From positions 1-16,588 of the IMG/VR virus record IMGVR_UViG_3300049451_000021: 16,588 nt of DNA; one strand, 5' to 3'. The DNA is from a virus. The notes beneath the pieces were generated by a model. It was not told the DNA's origin and made no database searches. It worked only from the letters and a program-made list of their open reading frames with translations. Position numbers and translations under genes: made by a program. Positions 1 to 16,588 of the stretch are shown in pieces. Positions within the stretch are counted from its first letter, which is position 1; every line of letters begins with the position of its first letter.

Positions 1-127
1 CCGCTCGCCGAGCTGGCCCACGAGCGCGGGGACCCACACGAGATCCACGCCGTGCTCACCACCGTCCGTGCCGCCCTGCTCGACCTCGCCACGTCCATGC
101 AGGCCTCAAGGCTCAAGATCGAGAGAG
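1..127. repeat. Left copy of a 127-bp exact terminal duplication, identical to 16462..16588.
   Basis: I compared the two ends base by base and all 127 positions match. Confidence 0.97.
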
Positions 128-12697: not shown

Positions 12698-13120
12698 TCA
12701 GATCCCGGCGAGGCCCCGGACCACCCGCGCCGGGACCATCAGCCGGTCGCGTGAGCCCCACGGCACCGCGCCGATCTCCTCGGCGTGCCGGCGCACGGCC
12801 GCCTCCGGGATGCCGAGCAGCCGCGACGCCTGCTCGAGGGTGAGCAGCGCGGGCAGCACGGCGAGCGCACCGGCGAGTGTGTCGGCGACGTCGTCGCGAC
12901 GTGTCGGTGTCGCGCTGTTGACGGCGACGTCGTCGCGACGTGTCGGCGACACGTCGGTCCCCGGCATCGGCGTGATCCGCATCGCATCGGCGGGGATCTG
13001 CCAGCCGGTCGACGTCTTCACCGCACCGGGGATCTCACCCGCCTTGCACCAGCGCTGAACCGTACGGGCATCGACGCGGTGCAGCGTGGCGAACTGGTCC
13101 GGGGTCACGTAGGCCTCCAT
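12698..13120 (-). CDS. DNA-binding protein with two excisionase-family (HTH_17/MerR-like) motifs; candidate excisionase or regulator.
   Basis: The N-terminal motif is VTPDQFATLHRVDARTVQRWCKAGEIPGAVK..GWQI. The C-terminal motif is LTLEQASRLLGIPEAAVRRHAEE. The linker between them carries a duplicated PTRRDDVA. Confidence 0.6.
   Translation of the reverse strand: MEAYVTPDQFATLHRVDARTVQRWCKAGEIPGAVKTSTGWQIPADAMRITPMPGTDVSPTRRDDVAVNSATPTRRDDVADTLAGALAVLPALLTLEQASRLLGIPEAAVRRHAEEIGAVPWGSRDRLMVPARVVRGLAGI
12883..12946. repeat. Two perfect 25-bp direct repeats, CGGCGACGTCGTCGCGACGTGTCGG, at 12883..12907 and 12922..12946.
   Basis: I read these directly from the sequence. The period is 39 bp and in frame, and each copy contains the palindromes CGACGTCG and GTCGCGAC. 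Confidence 0.9.
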
Positions 13121-13150: not shown

Positions 13151-13199
13151 CGAAGGTCAGGGCCCTGGCCTCTACGGAGGGCAAGGGCCCTGACCTTCG
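13151..13199. terminator. Strong hairpin: a perfect 16-bp stem with a 17-nt loop. It is a candidate factor-independent terminator without a U-tract.
   Basis: CGAAGGTCAGGGCCCT at 13151..13166 is the exact reverse complement of AGGGCCCTGACCTTCG at 13184..13199. The hairpin lies in a non-coding gap directly after the stop of the 13201..13320 ORF. Confidence 0.5.
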
Positions 13200-13200
13200 C

Positions 13201-13320
13201 TCATTCCTCGTGCTCGGGTGCCTCGCACCCACAAGGGACCTCGGCGAAATACGCCTGGCCCTCGCACAGCTCGTGCAGCCCGTCGAGGCATCGCCAGCAG
13301 ATCGGCTCATCCCGGCGCAT
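13201..13320 (-). CDS. Cys-rich micro-protein (39 aa), putatively zinc-binding.
   Basis: The sequence is MRRDEPICWRCLDGLHELCEGQAYFAEVPCGCEAPEHEE. AGGAG lies about 10 nt upstream of the ATG at 13320. The longer 70-aa version starting at 13413 has poor codon usage and overlaps int. Confidence 0.45.
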   Translation of the reverse strand: MRRDEPICWRCLDGLHELCEGQAYFAEVPCGCEAPEHEE

Positions 13321-13375
13321 ACGGGCCAAACTCCTAATCTGGGGATTCGTAGCCCGCAAACCCCTAATCCATTGA

Positions 13376-14260
13376 TCAGTGCTTTGTCGGGCGATACGGA
13401 CTGAAGTGGTCATGCACCCGCGTCATCGCCGTCCGCAGTTCGTCGTCGTCGACGTCGAGATAGACCTGCGTGACCGCCAGCGAGCTATGCCCGAGCGAGC
13501 GCTGCACGACGCGGATGTTGGTGCCCTTGCGCAGCATCGTCGTGGCGAAGGCGTGACGCAGCTGGTGCATCGTCGCGCCGTCCAGGAGCCGGCCCACGAC
13601 CCTGCCGACCCAGCGCGGCGACAGGTGCCCGTCGCAGTGGCCGGGGAACACATAGCCGGCGGCGTCGCGTAGCTGCTCGGCCAGGTCGACGTCGATCGGG
13701 ATGGAGCGCGGCCGCCCGCCCTTGCCATGCACGATCAGGCTGTGCCCGACGAGGTCGTCCACGACGTCGCGGCTGTGCACCTGGGCGACCTCGGCGCGGC
13801 GCAGTCCGTGCTCGCACGCGAGCACGAGCATGAGCTGCTCGCGGGTGTTGGCATGTGCCAACGCCGCGCTGTAGACCGCCAGCGCCGCCGGCCTGGGCAC
13901 GCCCCGCGACGGACGCACGACCGGCAGGCCCAGCGCGGGGTCGACGTCGACCCGGCCTGAACCGTGGGCCCACCTGTAGAAGCCGACCAGCGCCGCCCGG
14001 ACTGCACGCCGGCGCTCGCGCGACCACCGCGCCCGCAGCCGGCCCAGGTCCTCGTCCCACACCTCGAGGCCCATCCACTCCAGCAGCTGCGCCGTCGTGA
14101 CGTCGCCCGGACCACCGGTGACCTCACGAGACAGCTGCGCCAGGACCTGCCGCCGGCTGCCGATCGTCGAGCTCGCGCGCCCCGCCGCACGCAGCGCCGT
14201 CAGCCACTCCTCGATCCACTCCGACCACACCGGTGAGACCGGCCACTTGCTCAGCGCCAT
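13376..14260 (-). CDS. int: Tyrosine recombinase / phage integrase.
   Basis: The catalytic pattern is present: HGLRRAEV (Arg), HQLRHAFAT (His-x-x-Arg), LGHSS (His) and TQVYLDV (Tyr). GGAGGG lies 7 nt upstream of the ATG at 14260. The open frame continues upstream to 14392 but overlaps the preceding gene. Confidence 0.9.
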   Translation of the reverse strand: MALSKWPVSPVWSEWIEEWLTALRAAGRASSTIGSRRQVLAQLSREVTGGPGDVTTAQLLEWMGLEVWDEDLGRLRARWSRERRRAVRAALVGFYRWAHGSGRVDVDPALGLPVVRPSRGVPRPAALAVYSAALAHANTREQLMLVLACEHGLRRAEVAQVHSRDVVDDLVGHSLIVHGKGGRPRSIPIDVDLAEQLRDAAGYVFPGHCDGHLSPRWVGRVVGRLLDGATMHQLRHAFATTMLRKGTNIRVVQRSLGHSSLAVTQVYLDVDDDELRTAMTRVHDHFSPYRPTKH

Positions 14261-14310: not shown

Positions 14311-14628
14311 TCAGCCGACGATTGCCGCGACATCGTCGAGCATCAGCGAGACCTGGCCGCCGAGGTAGGTCCGTGTGTCCTCGAGGTGCCACTCGACCGA
14401 CGTCGACGACGCACCCGGGTGGTGCTCGGCAGGGACGTAGGACTCGATCACCCAGACCTGGGACTCCAGCGTGATGTGAATCTTCACCAGCGCCTCACCG
14501 GACGCCGAGCGCACCACCCACTCCGAGGCGTCGTGGTGGCCACGATTCAGGATGTCGACGTGCGTCAGCCCCGCATCCAGCAGCGCCGCCCACGTGATGT
14601 ACCCGTCACGGCGCTCGGCGTCGGTCAC
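14311..14628 (-). CDS. Hypothetical protein (105 aa).
   Basis: Its GTG start overlaps the stop of the upstream gene (GTGA). GC3 is high. I recognise no motif. Confidence 0.55.
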   Translation of the reverse strand: MTDAERRDGYITWAALLDAGLTHVDILNRGHHDASEWVVRSASGEALVKIHITLESQVWVIESYVPAEHHPGASSTSVEWHLEDTRTYLGGQVSLMLDDVAAIVG

Positions 14629-15161
14629 GCCTCTTCCCCGGCTTCAATGGCAGCGATGAACGCGGTCCGGTTGTGGCTGTCGAGGGACCACAGCGTGCGG
14701 CTCAGCTCACCCCGTGCCAGCGATGCGACCAACGCCAGGATCGCCTGCTCCCCGGAGGAGTAGACACCGGCGGCGTAGCGCCACGACCCGGGACCAGTCG
14801 CCTCAGCCACGTCATAGTCGATGTAGGCATACGTCTCGCCGGCGTCCATCTCGAGCGTGACCAGGCCACACTGCACCGAGCGCGCTACCTGGCCGGTGGC
14901 AATCAGCAGTTCGGTCGCGGCTACAGCCGATCGCGATCCACTAGCCCAGGTCCGCAACAGGGTCGCCACCTGATTCGCGGTCATGGCAGCGAGGTCCTGG
15001 TCGTTCCTGCGAAGCACGCCGCCGTAGCAGGCGTTGCAGATCACGTCGACCTGGTCTTCGACCGTGTCGTCGTTGAGGTACTTGGCCACCTCGAGGGCGC
15101 CGACGTAGCGGCTGCACTCGACGCAGTGCCGGCTTTCGTCGCCGAGATCCGCGGCGCTCAC
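14625..15161 (-). CDS. Hypothetical protein (178 aa) with an N-terminal CxxC...CxxC pair.
   Basis: Its GTG start overlaps the repressor stop codon (GTGA at 15161..15158). The two pairs are CVEC and CNAC, zinc-ribbon-like. I recognise no other motif. Confidence 0.55.
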   Translation of the reverse strand: MSAADLGDESRHCVECSRYVGALEVAKYLNDDTVEDQVDVICNACYGGVLRRNDQDLAAMTANQVATLLRTWASGSRSAVAATELLIATGQVARSVQCGLVTLEMDAGETYAYIDYDVAEATGPGSWRYAAGVYSSGEQAILALVASLARGELSRTLWSLDSHNRTAFIAAIEAGEEA

Positions 15162-15478
15162 GCTGCAGCCTCGAGCACTGACCAGAAGGTTAGGGGTTCG
15201 AGTCCCTTCGGGCGCACAGTCTCTTCCTCGCCGAACAACCAGCCCACCGAGACGCCGAGCGCGTCCGCCAGGGCGACCAGGTCGCCAGCGAACCAGGCAC
15301 TTTCACCCCTGAGCCGACGCGACAGGGTCGACTGAGTGATGCCCAGCGTCGTCGCCAGCTCGCGCTGCTGAATCTTGCGGCGCCACAGCACGTGGTGCAC
15401 CCGCTGGCCGATGAGCACGTCAATCTCTGCGCGTTGCACGGTCGCTCCCATGCCCTGAATCTTCCGACGCCGAGGCAT
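15158..15478 (-). CDS. XRE/Cro-CI-family helix-turn-helix repressor.
   Basis: IGQRVHHVLWRRKIQQRELATTLGITQSTLSRRLRGES is a classic XRE HTH. The gene is divergent from a Cro/Xis-like gene. If the leftward promoter is as I propose, the ATG at 15451 is a possible leaderless start. Confidence 0.8.
   Translation of the reverse strand: MPRRRKIQGMGATVQRAEIDVLIGQRVHHVLWRRKIQQRELATTLGITQSTLSRRLRGESAWFAGDLVALADALGVSVGWLFGEEETVRPKGLEPLTFWSVLEAAA
15185..15216 (+). other. Putative attP core: a mimic of a tRNA 3' end (variable loop, T-arm, acceptor 3' strand and discriminator).
   Basis: The sequence reads AGGTT-AGGGG-TTCGAGT-CCCTT-CGGGCGC-A. No complementary 5' acceptor strand (GCGCCCG) lies upstream, so this is a fragment and not a tRNA gene. 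The antisense frames give the tell-tale peptides GLEPLT and RDSNP. Confidence 0.6.
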
Positions 15479-15549
15479 CGTGCGTCAACACGCCGCGCCA
15501 TACGTCGATGATTGACACTGATTGCACCAGGTGCATAGCGTCACGCCAC
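15452..15549. promoter_or_regulatory. Divergent back-to-back promoter and operator region (the genetic switch).
   Basis: Rightward: TTGACA (15512..15517), an 18-bp spacer, then TAGCGT (15536..15541), with an ATG at 15550 (leaderless). Leftward: TTGACG (reverse complement of 15483..15488) and GAAGAT/AAGATT (reverse complement of about 15458..15464). A perfect 13-bp palindrome, TGCACCAGGTGCA (15523..15535), sits in the rightward spacer. Confidence 0.5.
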
Positions 15550-15762
15550 ATGACGACTCGTGAGAATCAACGCTCTACACCCGAATCGGACGACTGGCTA
15601 TCCGTCACGGCCGCGGCCGGCCTGCTCGCCGTCAGCAGACGGACCATCTACCGCTACATCGAGCTGGGCCACCTGCCCAAGCGCCAGCTGCCCGGCAACC
15701 GCGTCCGCCTGGCCCGCGCTGACGTGCTCGCGCTGCTCAAGGAGTCGGAGCGCTCAGCATGA
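15550..15762 (+). CDS. Excisionase-family HTH (HTH_17) DNA-binding protein in the Cro position.
   Basis: WLSVTAAAGLLAVSRRTIYRYIELGHLPKRQLPGNRVRLARADVLALL matches the excisionase/MerR-like HTH pattern. It is the first gene of the rightward string. The alternative upstream ATG at 15508 lies before the predicted -35. Confidence 0.7.
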   Translation: MTTRENQRSTPESDDWLSVTAAAGLLAVSRRTIYRYIELGHLPKRQLPGNRVRLARADVLALLKESERSA

Positions 15763-16352
15763 CCGCCGCCCGGTCGTCCGTCGTGCCGATCGAGGTAGCG
15801 CGTCGACGGCGTATCCCCTACGCCCAGGTGCGGGCCCACATCGCCCGCGACACCAACCTGTCCGTCATGGCCCGGCACCTCTACACGCTGCTGTGCGTCT
15901 ACGCGAACGCCGACGGTGAGGCCAGGCCCTCGGGTACGACCTTGCAGGGCGAGCTGGGCTGCTCTGAGAACACCCGCAAACGTGCCGTCAACGAGCTGGT
16001 GAAGGCCGGCTATCTCGAGGTGCAGGCACGCACGGACGAGCGTGGCCGGCAGACGGCGAACCTCTACATCCTGCTCGATGACTTCGGCATCGTTGACGAT
16101 GCGGCAGCGCGGATACCGGCACGTCGCGGCACCAGTAGGGGGGCCACCCATGGCCCCCCCCAAGGGGGGGCCACCAGTGGCCCCCTGGAGGGGGCCACCC
16201 ATGGCCCCGGGAGGGGGTCACCCATGGCCCCCCCTCAGGGGGGGCCACCCACGACCCCCCCGTATGAACAACCAGGTAGAACAGCGCGCGCGCAAGACCT
16301 CCGCGCGCTGCGTGAGGCAGTCAGCAAGAAGGGGTCGGCCGATGGACCGTGA
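15759..16352 (+). CDS. Winged-helix DNA-binding protein, replication-initiator-like, with a Gly/Pro-rich repeat linker.
   Basis: It overlaps the upstream gene by ATGA. LSVMARHLYTLLCVYANADGEARPSGTTLQGELGCSENTRKRAVNELVKAGYLE is a typical phage/plasmid wHTH (HTH_36-like). The C-terminal half is encoded by the repeat array at 16138..16261. Confidence 0.6.
   Translation: MTAARSSVVPIEVARRRRIPYAQVRAHIARDTNLSVMARHLYTLLCVYANADGEARPSGTTLQGELGCSENTRKRAVNELVKAGYLEVQARTDERGRQTANLYILLDDFGIVDDAAARIPARRGTSRGATHGPPQGGATSGPLEGATHGPGRGSPMAPPQGGPPTTPPYEQPGRTARAQDLRALREAVSKKGSADGP
16138..16261. repeat. Array of five tandem units of about 23-27 bp, each a G/C-rich dyad of the form GGGGCCA-CCCA-TGGCCCC. Candidate replication-origin iterons.
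   Basis: Dyads: 16138..16159 (9-bp arms), 16166..16185 (8-bp arms, loop CCAG), 16191..16208 (7-bp arms), 16213..16232 (one mismatch) and 16238..16261 (degenerate). Confidence 0.85.
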
Positions 16353-16588
16353 GCGGATCGAGCGCGAATTCCTGGCCCTCGAGCAGTGGATGGACGAGAC
16401 CAACCCGCCCCTGCTGGCCGTCGTCGTCCTGGCCAACGGTGCGGGTCACGCGTTCACGTACCCGCTCGCCGAGCTGGCCCACGAGCGCGGGGACCCACAC
16501 GAGATCCACGCCGTGCTCACCACCGTCCGTGCCGCCCTGCTCGACCTCGCCACGTCCATGCAGGCCTCAAGGCTCAAGATCGAGAGAG
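16342..16588 (+). CDS. Hypothetical protein: 5' part of the junction-spanning ORF, which continues at 128..186 of the unique sequence.
   Basis: The ATG at 16342 overlaps the stop of the initiator-like gene by 11 nt. The frame stays open to the window end and is in phase with 1..186. Confidence 0.6.
   Translation, partial: MDRERIEREFLALEQWMDETNPPLLAVVVLANGAGHAFTYPLAELAHERGDPHEIHAVLTTVRAALLDLATSMQASRLKIER
16462..16588. repeat. Right copy of the 127-bp exact terminal duplication, identical to 1..127.
   Basis: I compared the two ends base by base and all 127 positions match. Confidence 0.97.

What the first reader, a model, noticed from the sequence alone, without database searches (positions are those of the whole stretch)
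14311..15161. Two unknown genes are stop/start coupled to the viral-form repressor and would lose its promoter on integration
The repressor stop and the next start overlap as GTGA (15161..15158). That gene's stop and the following start overlap in the same way (14628..14625). The repressor, orf178 and orf105 therefore form one translationally coupled unit lying upstream of int.

If the attP core is where I place it (15185..15216), integration splits this unit. The repressor 5' part stays with its promoter at one prophage end. orf178, orf105 and int move to the other end, facing in from host DNA. These two proteins would then be made only from the unintegrated circular genome, during the lysis-lysogeny decision or after excision.

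orf178 has an N-terminal CxxC...CxxC pair. I recognise nothing in orf105. In the mycobacteriophage integration-dependent immunity systems I know of, int directly follows the repressor, so this two-gene insertion looks like an undescribed addition to that switch.
Basis: inference. Interest (0 to 1): 0.65.

Follow-up and report, generated by a model that had tools for sequence, protein, structure and literature searches.

The report
Extra genes in integration-dependent phage switch
In a tiny temperate actinobacterial phage, two unknown genes lie between a self-destructing repressor and the integrase and would lose their promoter when the phage integrates, but this layout is a variation already noted in related phages, so it is a modest find.

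Summary
The repressor, orf178 and orf105 overlap by GTGA at 15161..15158 and 14628..14625, and both ORFs are real genes. The window is a complete circular genome of about 16.46 kb in its unintegrated form.

It carries an integration-dependent immunity cassette. A 36-bp attP core (15183..15218) equals the 3' end of tRNA-Arg(ACG), the site phage BPs uses. The core lies in the repressor's 3' end, and the repressor ends in -LEAAA (relatives end in -DDLALAA).

The novelty claim does not hold. Gordonia phage GMA5 has a coupled extra ORF between rep and int, and M. abscessus prophages are described with 3-5 genes there. I also found integrated Microbacterium and Nocardia elements with the same core and unrelated genes in that slot.

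What is new is the gene content. orf105 is an acidic protein with no recognisable relatives. It sits directly upstream of int in every relative that includes that region, even at 27% identity. orf178 is interchangeable mosaic cargo. The function of both is unknown, and no integrated form of this phage family was found.

The parts
15512..15541 (+). Predicted rightward early promoter P_R (TTGACA, 18-nt spacer, TAGCGT). The Cro/Xis-like HTH_17 gene probably starts leaderless at ATG 15550.
   Evidence: My own hexamer scan. HTH_17 hit at 1.4e-11.
15458..15488 (-). Predicted P_rep: TTGACG (15488..15483), a 19-nt spacer, then AAGATT (15463..15458), 6 nt before ATG 15451. This implies a leaderless rep mRNA.
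   Evidence: Five relatives have a TANNNT hexamer 6-7 nt upstream of the aligned rep ATG. The window's own hexamer is non-canonical, so this assignment is an inference.
15158..15451 (-). Viral-form immunity repressor, 97 aa (106 aa if it starts at 15478). It has an HTH_3 domain and the C-terminal tail ...RPKGLEPLTFWSVLEAAA.
   Evidence: Pfam HTH_3 2e-9 and PHROG transcriptional repressor 4e-15. Start supported by alignment with relatives. Relatives' tails end in -DDLALAA, -DDLALTA or -LEVAA.
15183..15218 (+). attP common core, equal to the 3' part of tRNA-Arg(ACG) from the anticodon stem to the discriminator base. It lies inside the rep 3' end.
   Evidence: ARAGORN calls a pseudo-tRNA here. 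It matches the Cracklewink repressor 3' end. It is identical, apart from one T-loop base that varies among the sequences, to the 3' end of the tRNA-Arg(acg) genes in L014 and L023. The same core sits in rep of all relatives. The BPs prophage repressor ends in the same sequence...TCGAACCCCCAACCTTCTGA (PMC4557955).
14625..15161 (-). orf178: an acidic (pI 4.4) two-part protein. Residues 1-52 form a CxxC...CxxC zinc-ribbon-like module. Residues ~60-178 form a conserved C-domain with the motif SxGE..A...L..SLA.GEL. It occupies a variable cargo slot.
   Evidence: The N-module is ~97% nt-identical to L005 while the flanks are ~50-55% identical. The C-domain also follows a tagged rep in L030, and occurs in L035, where no int or rep was called in the 11.4 kb examined.
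14311..14628 (-). orf105: a conserved acidic (pI 4.8) protein with an alpha-alpha-beta4-alpha fold and a near-invariant C-terminus, MLDDVAAIVG. It lies directly upstream of int in every relative whose contig includes that region.
13376..14260 (-). Tyrosine integrase, 294 aa, of the short type found in integration-dependent immunity phages.
   Evidence: PF00589 7e-21. 43-45% identical to Mycobacterium phage Taheera gp32 and to Gordonia phage Wizard Int. 41% identical to GMA5 Int.
13151..13199 (-). Strong GC-rich hairpin, the probable terminator of the leftward rep-orf178-orf105-int(-orf70) operon.
   Evidence: 20-nt arms, 95% complementary. Folding energy -41.9 kcal/mol, z = -5.6 against shuffles.

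Best explanation
The window is the complete, circularly assembled, unintegrated genome of a ~16.5-kb temperate actinobacteriophage. Its lysis-lysogeny switch is an integration-dependent immunity cassette of the BPs type.

orf178 and orf105 are real protein-coding genes inside the leftward P_rep operon: rep, orf178, orf105, int, possibly orf70, then a hairpin terminator.

The 36-bp attP core lies in the last codons of rep. Integration into a host tRNA-Arg(ACG) gene would therefore have three effects:
- It would replace the repressor tail -WSVLEAAA with an immediate host-derived TGA stop, as in BPs.
- It would leave P_rep and the truncated rep at attL.
- It would move orf178, orf105 and int to attR, where they face inward from host DNA behind the tRNA terminator.

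The two genes are thus wired like int. They would be transcribed and translated with rep from the free circular genome, early after infection or after excision, and would be largely shut off in the lysogen.

Within this arrangement the two genes differ:
- orf105 is the family's constant, integrase-linked component. It is most likely a protein-binding accessory factor for lysogeny establishment, either integration or control of Int/Rep stability. This is inference, with about 0.35 confidence on its own.
- orf178 is interchangeable mosaic cargo in a slot just downstream of rep, and other lineages fill that slot with unrelated genes.

What is shown: the gene structure, the coding status, the identity of the attP core, the conservation pattern and the integration geometry. 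What is inferred: the expression pattern and the function.
For: Circular viral form: a 127-bp terminal direct repeat.

Cassette:
- HTH repressor, tyrosine integrase and a divergent HTH_17 gene.
- The core equals the tRNA-Arg(acg) 3' end and matches the sequence at the end of the BPs prophage repressor.
- All 18 genomic copies carrying the phage-type CCAGAAGG are non-tRNA att-type copies, while the two true tRNA-Arg genes seen have TCAGAAGG. The host base would therefore create a TGA right after ...PLTF.
- ssrA-like tails occur on the viral repressors of the window and its relatives.

Operon:
- 4-nt overlaps between successive genes.
- The orf105-int spacer is 50 nt and has no significant structure.
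- No TANNNT hexamer lies between the core and int in the window or in 5 of 6 relatives.
- A strong hairpin occurs only after orf70.
- In the BPs system, P_rep drives rep and int (PMC3694055; PMC4557955).

orf105-int linkage:
- orf105 lies next to int in all loci that include that region.
- This holds even for homologues at 38% and 27% identity, whose neighbouring Int proteins are 74% and 70% identical to the window's.
- Purifying selection acts on orf105.

Integrated analogues with the same core and genes between the rep tail and int:
- Microbacterium MAG L012: terminator hairpin, core, rep tail, a GMA5-gp18-like ORF, then int.
- Nocardia pseudovaccinii L021: a rep tail ending ...VGAA, then two stop/start-coupled ORFs, then int.
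Against: - No integrated copy of this phage family was found. There were none in 185,579 species-representative genomes, and every metagenomic contig covering the junction is in the attP form.
- The true host and its tRNA-Arg sequence are unknown.
- The window's P_rep -10 (AAGATT) is non-canonical, so a hexamer scan could also miss a weak internal promoter.
- There are no expression data.
- The window's Int lacks an obvious ssrA-like tail (it ends ...YRPTKH), unlike BPs Int.
- The only difference between the viral and prophage repressor forms here is about 8 residues, much less than the 33 residues in BPs.
- Neither protein has any homology or significant fold match that would tie it to integration or proteolysis.
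- The orf178 C-domain also occurs in a phage contig (L035) with no int or rep called in the 11.4 kb examined.
Confidence: 0.65

Rival explanations
1. The genes are passenger cargo. The stretch between rep and int is a permissive insertion hot spot. orf178, and possibly orf105, would then be early accessory genes such as counter-defence factors or host-takeover inhibitors. They would simply ride the early leftward transcript and play no part in the lysis-lysogeny switch. The accessory genes of the lambda PL operon are an analogy.
For: - The slot is hypervariable. It holds orf178, a 77-90-aa family, a 62-aa ORF, a 71-aa ORF or a 29-aa ORF in close relatives.
- Unrelated genes fill the same slot in GMA5, Microbacterium and Nocardia elements.
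- The orf178 C-domain occurs in an early-gene region of a 24-kb phage contig, with no int or rep called in the 11.4 kb examined.
- orf178 is a mosaic of modules with different histories.
- Both proteins are strongly acidic, like many small phage inhibitor proteins (the comparison is from my own knowledge).
Against: - orf105 is never found away from int. It keeps its position even when its sequence has diverged to 27% identity while Int stays at 70%.
- No PADLOC, PHROG or Pfam hit links either protein to defence or anti-defence.
Confidence: 0.25
2. The genes are expressed from the prophage. orf178 and orf105 would be lysogenic-conversion or prophage-defence genes at the attR end, transcribed in the lysogen from an unrecognised internal promoter or from host read-through. 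Prophage-expressed genes next to int in some mycobacteriophages would be the model.
For: - They lie at a prophage end, which is a typical location for morons.
- The slot content is variable.
- My promoter search recognises only TANNNT-type -10 elements, and the window's own P_rep does not fit that pattern.
Against: - The 4-nt overlaps with the upstream gene leave no room for a promoter and leader.
- No conserved -10-like element lies between the core and int in 6 of 7 genomes.
- In integrated analogues, the host side of attR carries the tRNA's terminator hairpin immediately next to the core.
- The tRNA is transcribed away from the prophage genes.
Confidence: 0.08
3. The ORFs are artefacts of high G+C content and are not genes.
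For: - The window is 70.8% G+C, and long spurious ORFs occur in all frames.
- There are no database annotations for either ORF.
Against: - GC3 is 0.83 and 0.89 in the proposed frames.
- Synonymous changes are in excess for orf105.
- Protein-level conservation is seen in 20 sequences for orf105 and 7 for orf178.
- Start and stop positions are conserved.
- The AlphaFold model of orf105 has pLDDT 76 and pTM 0.68.
Confidence: 0.02

Closest known systems
Integration-dependent immunity of mycobacteriophages BPs, Brujita and Charlie (Broussard et al. 2013; PMC3694055, PMC4557955)
   Same: - attP lies inside the repressor's 3' end, and the viral repressor carries an ssrA-like tail.
- rep and int are transcribed leftward from P_rep, divergent from a cro-like gene under P_R.
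- The integrase is a short tyrosine integrase (43% identical to that of Mycobacterium phage Taheera, 41 kb, whose integrase is also gene 32 as in BPs).
- The attB type is the same: the BPs prophage repressor ends in the same tRNA-derived sequence, with TGA supplied by the host.
   Different: - Two genes lie between rep and int.
- The viral and prophage repressors would differ by only about 8 residues, against 33 in BPs.
- Int has no obvious C-terminal tag.
- The genome is about 16.5 kb, against about 42 kb.
- Nothing has been tested experimentally.
Gordonia phage GMA5 (cluster CW, 17.6 kb; Pope et al. 2017, PMC5559632)
   Same: - A small-genome temperate actinophage with integration-dependent immunity.
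- It has an extra ORF (gene 18) of unknown function between rep and int, overlapping the rep stop by 4 nt.
- Its rep tail ends in ...WGAAA.
- Its Int is 41% identical to the window's.
   Different: - One extra gene, not two.
- gp18 is basic (pI 10.2), has an HTH-like C-terminus, and is not homologous to orf178 or orf105.
- Its attB is tRNA-Lys.
M. abscessus prophages with integration-dependent immunity (clusters MabB, C, H, K, N, O; Dedrick et al. 2021, PMC8092301)
   Same: [quoted passage not shown] A stop codon is created by the first bacterial base at attL.
   Different: - Different phages, with larger genomes.
- I did not compare their intervening genes with orf178 or orf105. The tblastn searches covered the phage collection only and found nothing.
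Phage lambda PL operon and CIII (analogy of mechanism only; from my own knowledge)
   Same: Small accessory proteins are co-transcribed with int on the early leftward transcript and act only during establishment. CIII protects a labile regulator by competing for a host protease.
   Different: - No sequence or fold similarity.
- In lambda, integration does not sever the operon from its promoter.

Membership tests
Integration-dependent immunity system (BPs type) | The attP common core is located inside the repressor ORF near its 3' end. | tested here: met
   The core at 15183..15218 lies within rep (15158..15451). It matches the tRNA-Arg(acg) 3' end and the Cracklewink and BPs repressor 3' ends.
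Integration-dependent immunity system (BPs type) | [quoted passage not shown] | tested here: inconclusive
   By sequence, the window's repressor ends in -LEAAA and relatives end in -DDLALAA, -DDLALTA or -LEVAA. A host T in place of the phage C would give TGA directly after ...PLTF. Proteolysis itself cannot be tested with these tools, and the host tRNA is unknown.
Integration-dependent immunity system (BPs type) | rep and int are transcribed in the same direction from P_rep, divergent from a cro-like gene under P_R. | tested here: met
   The gene order and strands fit. P_R is TTGACA-18-TAGCGT. A -10 element lies 6-7 nt before the rep ATG in relatives. Transcription itself is inferred.
Integration-dependent immunity system (BPs type) | int lies immediately downstream of rep (the canonical three-gene cassette). 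| tested here: not met
   orf178 and orf105 (851 bp) lie between them. The literature already accepts this as a variation within the family.
Integration-dependent immunity system (BPs type) | Int carries a C-terminal degradation signal. | tested here: not met
   The window's Int ends in ...HDHFSPYRPTKH. Some relatives end in -RAIA or -PGRA. Dedrick et al. 2021 note that some systems lack such tags.
Integration-dependent immunity system (BPs type) | An integrated prophage is observed with truncated rep at attL and int at attR. | tested here: not met
   No integrated member of this phage family was found. attR-type junctions with the same core and related integrases do exist in Microbacterium, Nocardia, Mycobacteroides and Actinomyces genomes.
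Variant with genes between rep and int (GMA5 and M. abscessus type) | One or more ORFs lie between the tagged rep and int, on the same strand and in the same operon. | tested here: met
   The window has two such ORFs with 4-nt overlaps. GMA5 gene 18 overlaps rep by 4 nt. Nocardia locus L021 has two coupled ORFs in this position.
Variant with genes between rep and int (GMA5 and M. abscessus type) | The intervening proteins are homologous to GMA5 gp18. | tested here: not met
   No BLASTP or tblastn similarity was found. The Microbacterium L012 ORF, by contrast, is 48% identical to gp18.
Recombination directionality factor / excisionase | A small basic DNA-binding protein (winged helix or HTH) next to int. 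| tested here: not met
   orf105 has pI 4.8 and orf178 has pI 4.4. Neither has an HTH or Xis family hit. The orf105 model is alpha-alpha-beta4-alpha and has no significant match.

The most novel reading that the evidence does not exclude
orf105 could be a dedicated fourth component of the integration-dependent switch. In this reading it is an establishment-phase modulator, made only while the genome is unintegrated, that tunes proteolysis of the tagged viral repressor and/or Int.

One possible mechanism is that it acts as a decoy or adaptor for the host protease, in the way lambda CIII does. Its near-invariant C-terminal LDDVAAIVG resembles the repressors' DDLALAA tag.

Integration would then switch off the modulator at the same moment that it stabilises the repressor.
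Probability: 0.1. Interest if true: 0.65.

Novelty: new member of a known kind. Interest (0 to 1): 0.3.

Why it matters
[quoted passage not shown] It has been proposed as an ancestral form of lambda-like switches.

If orf105 proved to be needed for establishing lysogeny, the minimal switch in this phage family would have a fourth, integration-silenced component. That would give a concrete intermediate in the proposed route towards more complex switches.

As things stand, the result mainly does three things:
- It extends the known system to a family of uncultivated ~16-kb temperate actinophages.
- It shows that the rep-int interval is a recurrent cargo slot across Actinobacteria.
- It flags one integrase-linked orphan protein family as worth a knockout experiment.

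Tried and rejected
1. Homology searches for both proteins found nothing:
   - Pfam, PHROGs, NCBIfam and PADLOC gave no hits.
   - tblastn against 50,697 phage genomes gave no hits.
   - PDB sequence profiles gave nothing meaningful.
   - HMMER against 1.84 billion representative proteins found only four small remote relatives of orf105.

2. Structure prediction:
   - The orf178 model was unusable, with pLDDT 41.
   - The orf105 model was moderate, with pLDDT 76. Foldseek against PDB and BFVD gave no hit with E below 0.001. The best was a human PURA repeat at E 0.04 and TM 0.35, which I treat as a weak lead only.

3. Search for an integrated prophage of this family:
   - The GTDB representative genomes held none.
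   - The metagenome scan returned 3 loci, none showing an integrated junction.

4. The generic sigma-70 and terminator scan found nothing at all, not even at P_R, so I replaced it with my own TANNNT scan.

5. Rfam returned only spurious miRNA-like hits on the GC-rich repeats at 16120-16260.

6. I tested whether the Nocardia L021 genes in the same slot are homologues of orf178 or orf105. They are not; hhalign probability was about 0.1%.

7. I considered whether the near-identical orf178 N-terminal DNA, next to the core, is an attP arm. I rejected this because relatives with the same core and a similar Int lack that sequence altogether.

8. I considered whether orf105 is an excisionase or RDF. 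I rejected this because of its acidity and the lack of any DNA-binding fold.

Full report
**1. What is in the sequence**

On the minus strand the window carries these ORFs:
- an HTH_3 repressor at 15158..15478 as listed (Pfam 2e-9; PHROG transcriptional repressor 4e-15);
- orf178 at 14625..15161;
- orf105 at 14311..14628;
- a tyrosine integrase at 13376..14260 from its ATG (PF00589 7e-21).

Such 4-nt overlaps are the usual junction in this genome. At least four other same-strand gene pairs have them. They show that the genes share an operon and nothing more.

The window has a 127-bp terminal direct repeat. It is therefore a circularly assembled, complete genome of about 16.46 kb in the unintegrated form. 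Its G+C content is 70.8%.

**2. Are the two ORFs genes?**

Yes.
- GC3 is 0.83 for orf178 and 0.89 for orf105.
- orf105 has 20 metagenomic homologues at 68-88% identity, with 36 invariant columns.
- In five pairwise comparisons it shows 20-30 synonymous-only codon differences against 14-27 nonsynonymous ones.
- orf178 has fewer relatives, seven in total.

orf178 has two parts. The N-terminal module of about 52 residues, with the CxxC...CxxC pair, is shared only with P0004. The C-terminal domain of about 115 residues is shared with all seven relatives.

Against locus L005, the DNA encoding the N-module is about 97% identical. The C-domain and rep are only about 50-55% identical, and orf105-int is about 85-90% identical. 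orf178 is therefore a mosaic.

**3. The cassette is an integration-dependent immunity system**

Positions 15183..15218 on the plus strand read as the 3' part of a tRNA.
- ARAGORN calls a pseudo-tRNA there.
- The only megablast hit in 50,697 phage genomes is the 3' end of the immunity repressor of Mycobacterium phage Cracklewink, in which int directly follows rep.
- The sequence equals the 3' end of the tRNA-Arg(acg) genes in two mycobacterial loci.
- A published cloning primer shows that the BPs prophage repressor ends in TCGAACCCCCAACCTTCTGA. That is the same core, followed by a TGA stop (PMC4557955).

I scanned the species-representative genomes for the phage-type version (CCAGAAGG...). It returned 18 copies, and none is an intact tRNA. 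The two true tRNA-Arg genes seen have TCAGAAGG. The C at 15182 is thus phage-specific. A host T at that position would convert the phage TGG (Trp) codon into TGA directly after ...GLEPLTF.

Integration would therefore remove the tail -WSVLEAAA. Repressors of relatives end in -DDLALAA, -DDLALTA or -LEVAA. These are typical ssrA-like tags as described for this kind of system (PMC4557955, PMC8092301).

The integrase is 43-45% identical to the Int of Mycobacterium phage Taheera (41 kb, integrase gene 32, as in BPs) and of Gordonia phages such as Wizard, which are reported to use this system (PMC5559632).

**4. Promoters and transcript ends**

P_R is a perfect TTGACA-18-TAGCGT at 15512..15541. It would give a leaderless HTH_17 Cro/Xis-like gene starting at 15550.

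Aligned repressor N-termini place the true rep start at ATG 15451, giving a 97-aa protein. In five relatives a TANNNT hexamer sits 6-7 nt upstream of that ATG. The window has AAGATT there, with TTGACG 19 nt further upstream. This points to a leaderless rep transcript.

Between the core and the int start, the only TANNNT on the gene-sense strand is the one inside the core. This holds for the window and for five of six relatives.

The 50-nt orf105-int spacer has no significant structure (z = +0.97).

The only strong hairpin lies after orf70, at 13151..13199 (-41.9 kcal/mol, z = -5.6).

The simplest reading is a single leftward operon: rep, orf178, orf105, int, possibly orf70. In BPs, P_rep drives rep and int (PMC3694055; PMC4557955).

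**5. Geometry of integration**

The tRNA sense of the core is on the plus strand. Recombination with the host tRNA gene would therefore give two junctions:
- attL = tRNA 5' part, core, then the rep 5' part with P_rep;
- attR = ...int, orf105, orf178, core, then the host DNA downstream of the tRNA.

I could not find an integrated member of this phage family. Integrated analogues with the same core do exist:
- In a Microbacterium MAG (L012), a terminator hairpin abuts the core. It is followed by a rep tail, an 87-aa ORF that is 48% identical to GMA5 gp18, and a related integrase.
- In Nocardia pseudovaccinii NBRC 100343 (L021), a rep tail ending ...RRVGAA overlaps (ATGA) a 281-aa ORF. That ORF overlaps a 106-aa ORF, which runs into int.

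The Nocardia case is a two-gene, stop/start-coupled insertion in the integrated state. Its proteins are unrelated to orf178 and orf105.

**6. Comparative anatomy within the family**

Every relative that covers the region has rep, then one or two variable genes, then an orf105 homologue, then int. The junctions are nearly all 4-nt overlaps.

The variable slot holds one of the following:
- an orf178-type protein (window, L005, L004);
- a member of a weakly related 77-90-aa family (L003, L008, L009, L011, L041);
- in some cases an additional small ORF.

The orf178 C-domain also turns up in two other settings. It directly follows a different tagged repressor (...DDLELAA) in a 19.9-kb phage that lacks orf105 (L030). 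It also occurs among early genes of a 24-kb phage contig in which no int or rep was called in the 11.4 kb examined (L035).

orf105, in contrast, is never separated from int. Homologues at 38% and 27% identity (P0027, P0031) still sit about 50 nt upstream of integrases that are 74% and 70% identical to the window's.

orf105 thus evolves much faster than Int but keeps its place.

**7. What the proteins might be**

Neither protein has a hit in any family, phage, PDB or defence-system search.

The orf105 model has pLDDT 76 and pTM 0.68. It shows two short helices, a four-stranded sheet and a long C-terminal helix. The best structural matches are not significant: a PUR repeat at E 0.04 and TM 0.35, and uncharacterised viral proteins at E about 0.02.

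The orf178 model is unusable.

Both proteins are strongly acidic, with pI 4.8 and 4.4. This argues against an excisionase-like or repressor-like DNA-binding role and favours protein binding.

The most conserved stretch of orf105 is its C-terminus, MLDDVAAIVG. It loosely resembles the repressors' DDLALAA tag. I record this as speculation only.

**8. Comparison with what is known**

The system works like BPs-type integration-dependent immunity and meets its defining features. The exceptions are that int is not adjacent to rep, Int has no evident tag, and no lysogen has been observed.

- Pope et al. [quoted passage not shown] I confirmed that gene 18 overlaps rep by 4 nt.
- Dedrick et al. [quoted passage not shown]

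Hence this is a new member of a known kind, showing a known variation.

**9. Verdict**

The geometric interpretation is supported, but neither expression nor function has been shown. The novelty claim is not supported.

The one point of real interest is orf105, an orphan and fast-evolving family that is strictly linked to int and wired to be switched off by integration. Its role could be tested by a single deletion.

Interest is 0.3.

Noticed in passing
window 1..127 and 16462..16588: A 127-bp exact terminal direct repeat. The contig is a circularly assembled, complete genome of about 16.46 kb, among the smallest known for temperate tailed actinophages. The terminase is only about 35% identical to those of small Arthrobacter phages (Corgi, BlueFeather, Yavru).
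   Followed up: partly
window 13359..13383, paired with 15174..15198: An inverted, 80%-matching copy of the int-proximal (orf178-side) boundary of attP lies just past the int stop codon. The block orf178-orf105-int is therefore bracketed by inverted att-like sequences. The copy is the top-scoring match in L005, L008 and L009 as well. Nearby is a direct repeat, ATTAGGGGTTTG ... ATTAGGAGTTTG. This could be an extra Int-binding site or a relic of cassette exchange.
   Followed up: partly
window 15449..15488: The repressor probably starts at ATG 15451 (97 aa) and not at 15478. Relatives have a TANNNT -10 element 6-7 nt upstream of the aligned ATG, which suggests leaderless rep mRNAs. The window's hexamer is the non-canonical AAGATT.
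   Followed up: yes
window 16138..16261: About 4-5 tandem copies of a 24-27-nt G+C-rich palindromic unit (GGGGGCCACCCATGGCCCCC...) lie inside the 3' part of the HTH_36 replication-initiator-like gene (15759..16352). This may be an iteron-type origin. It caused spurious miRNA hits in Rfam.
   Followed up: no
window 13201..13413 (minus strand): orf70 is a Cys-rich small ORF (CWRC...C...CGC) that overlaps the int 3' end by 38 nt. Its GC3 is only 0.68, and it is not called in all relatives, so its coding status is uncertain.
   Followed up: no
window 12698..13120 (minus strand); repeat at 12879..12957: A 140-aa protein with two HTH_17 (excisionase-like) domains lies downstream of the operon's hairpin. 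It contains an internal tandem repeat that encodes PTRRDDVA twice. It is conserved in all relatives, next to the lysin gene, and is a candidate excisionase or regulator.
   Followed up: no
L012, L013, L015, L016, L017, L018, L021 (genome loci): Seven of the 18 loci, in Microbacterium, Mycobacteroides, Actinomyces and Nocardia genomes, carry an attR-type junction. Each has the same tRNA-Arg core, a repressor tail ending in A or AA (seen in six of the seven; the L012 tail ends differently), and an integrase 37-44% identical to the window's, lying 60 to 1,270 bp from the core. This shows that the rep-int interval is a widespread cargo slot.
   Followed up: partly
window 15030..15160 compared with L005 453..600: The DNA encoding the orf178 zinc-ribbon module is about 97% identical between two phages whose flanking rep and orf178 C-domain sequences are only about 50-55% identical. 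This indicates recent module exchange right next to attP.
   Followed up: partly
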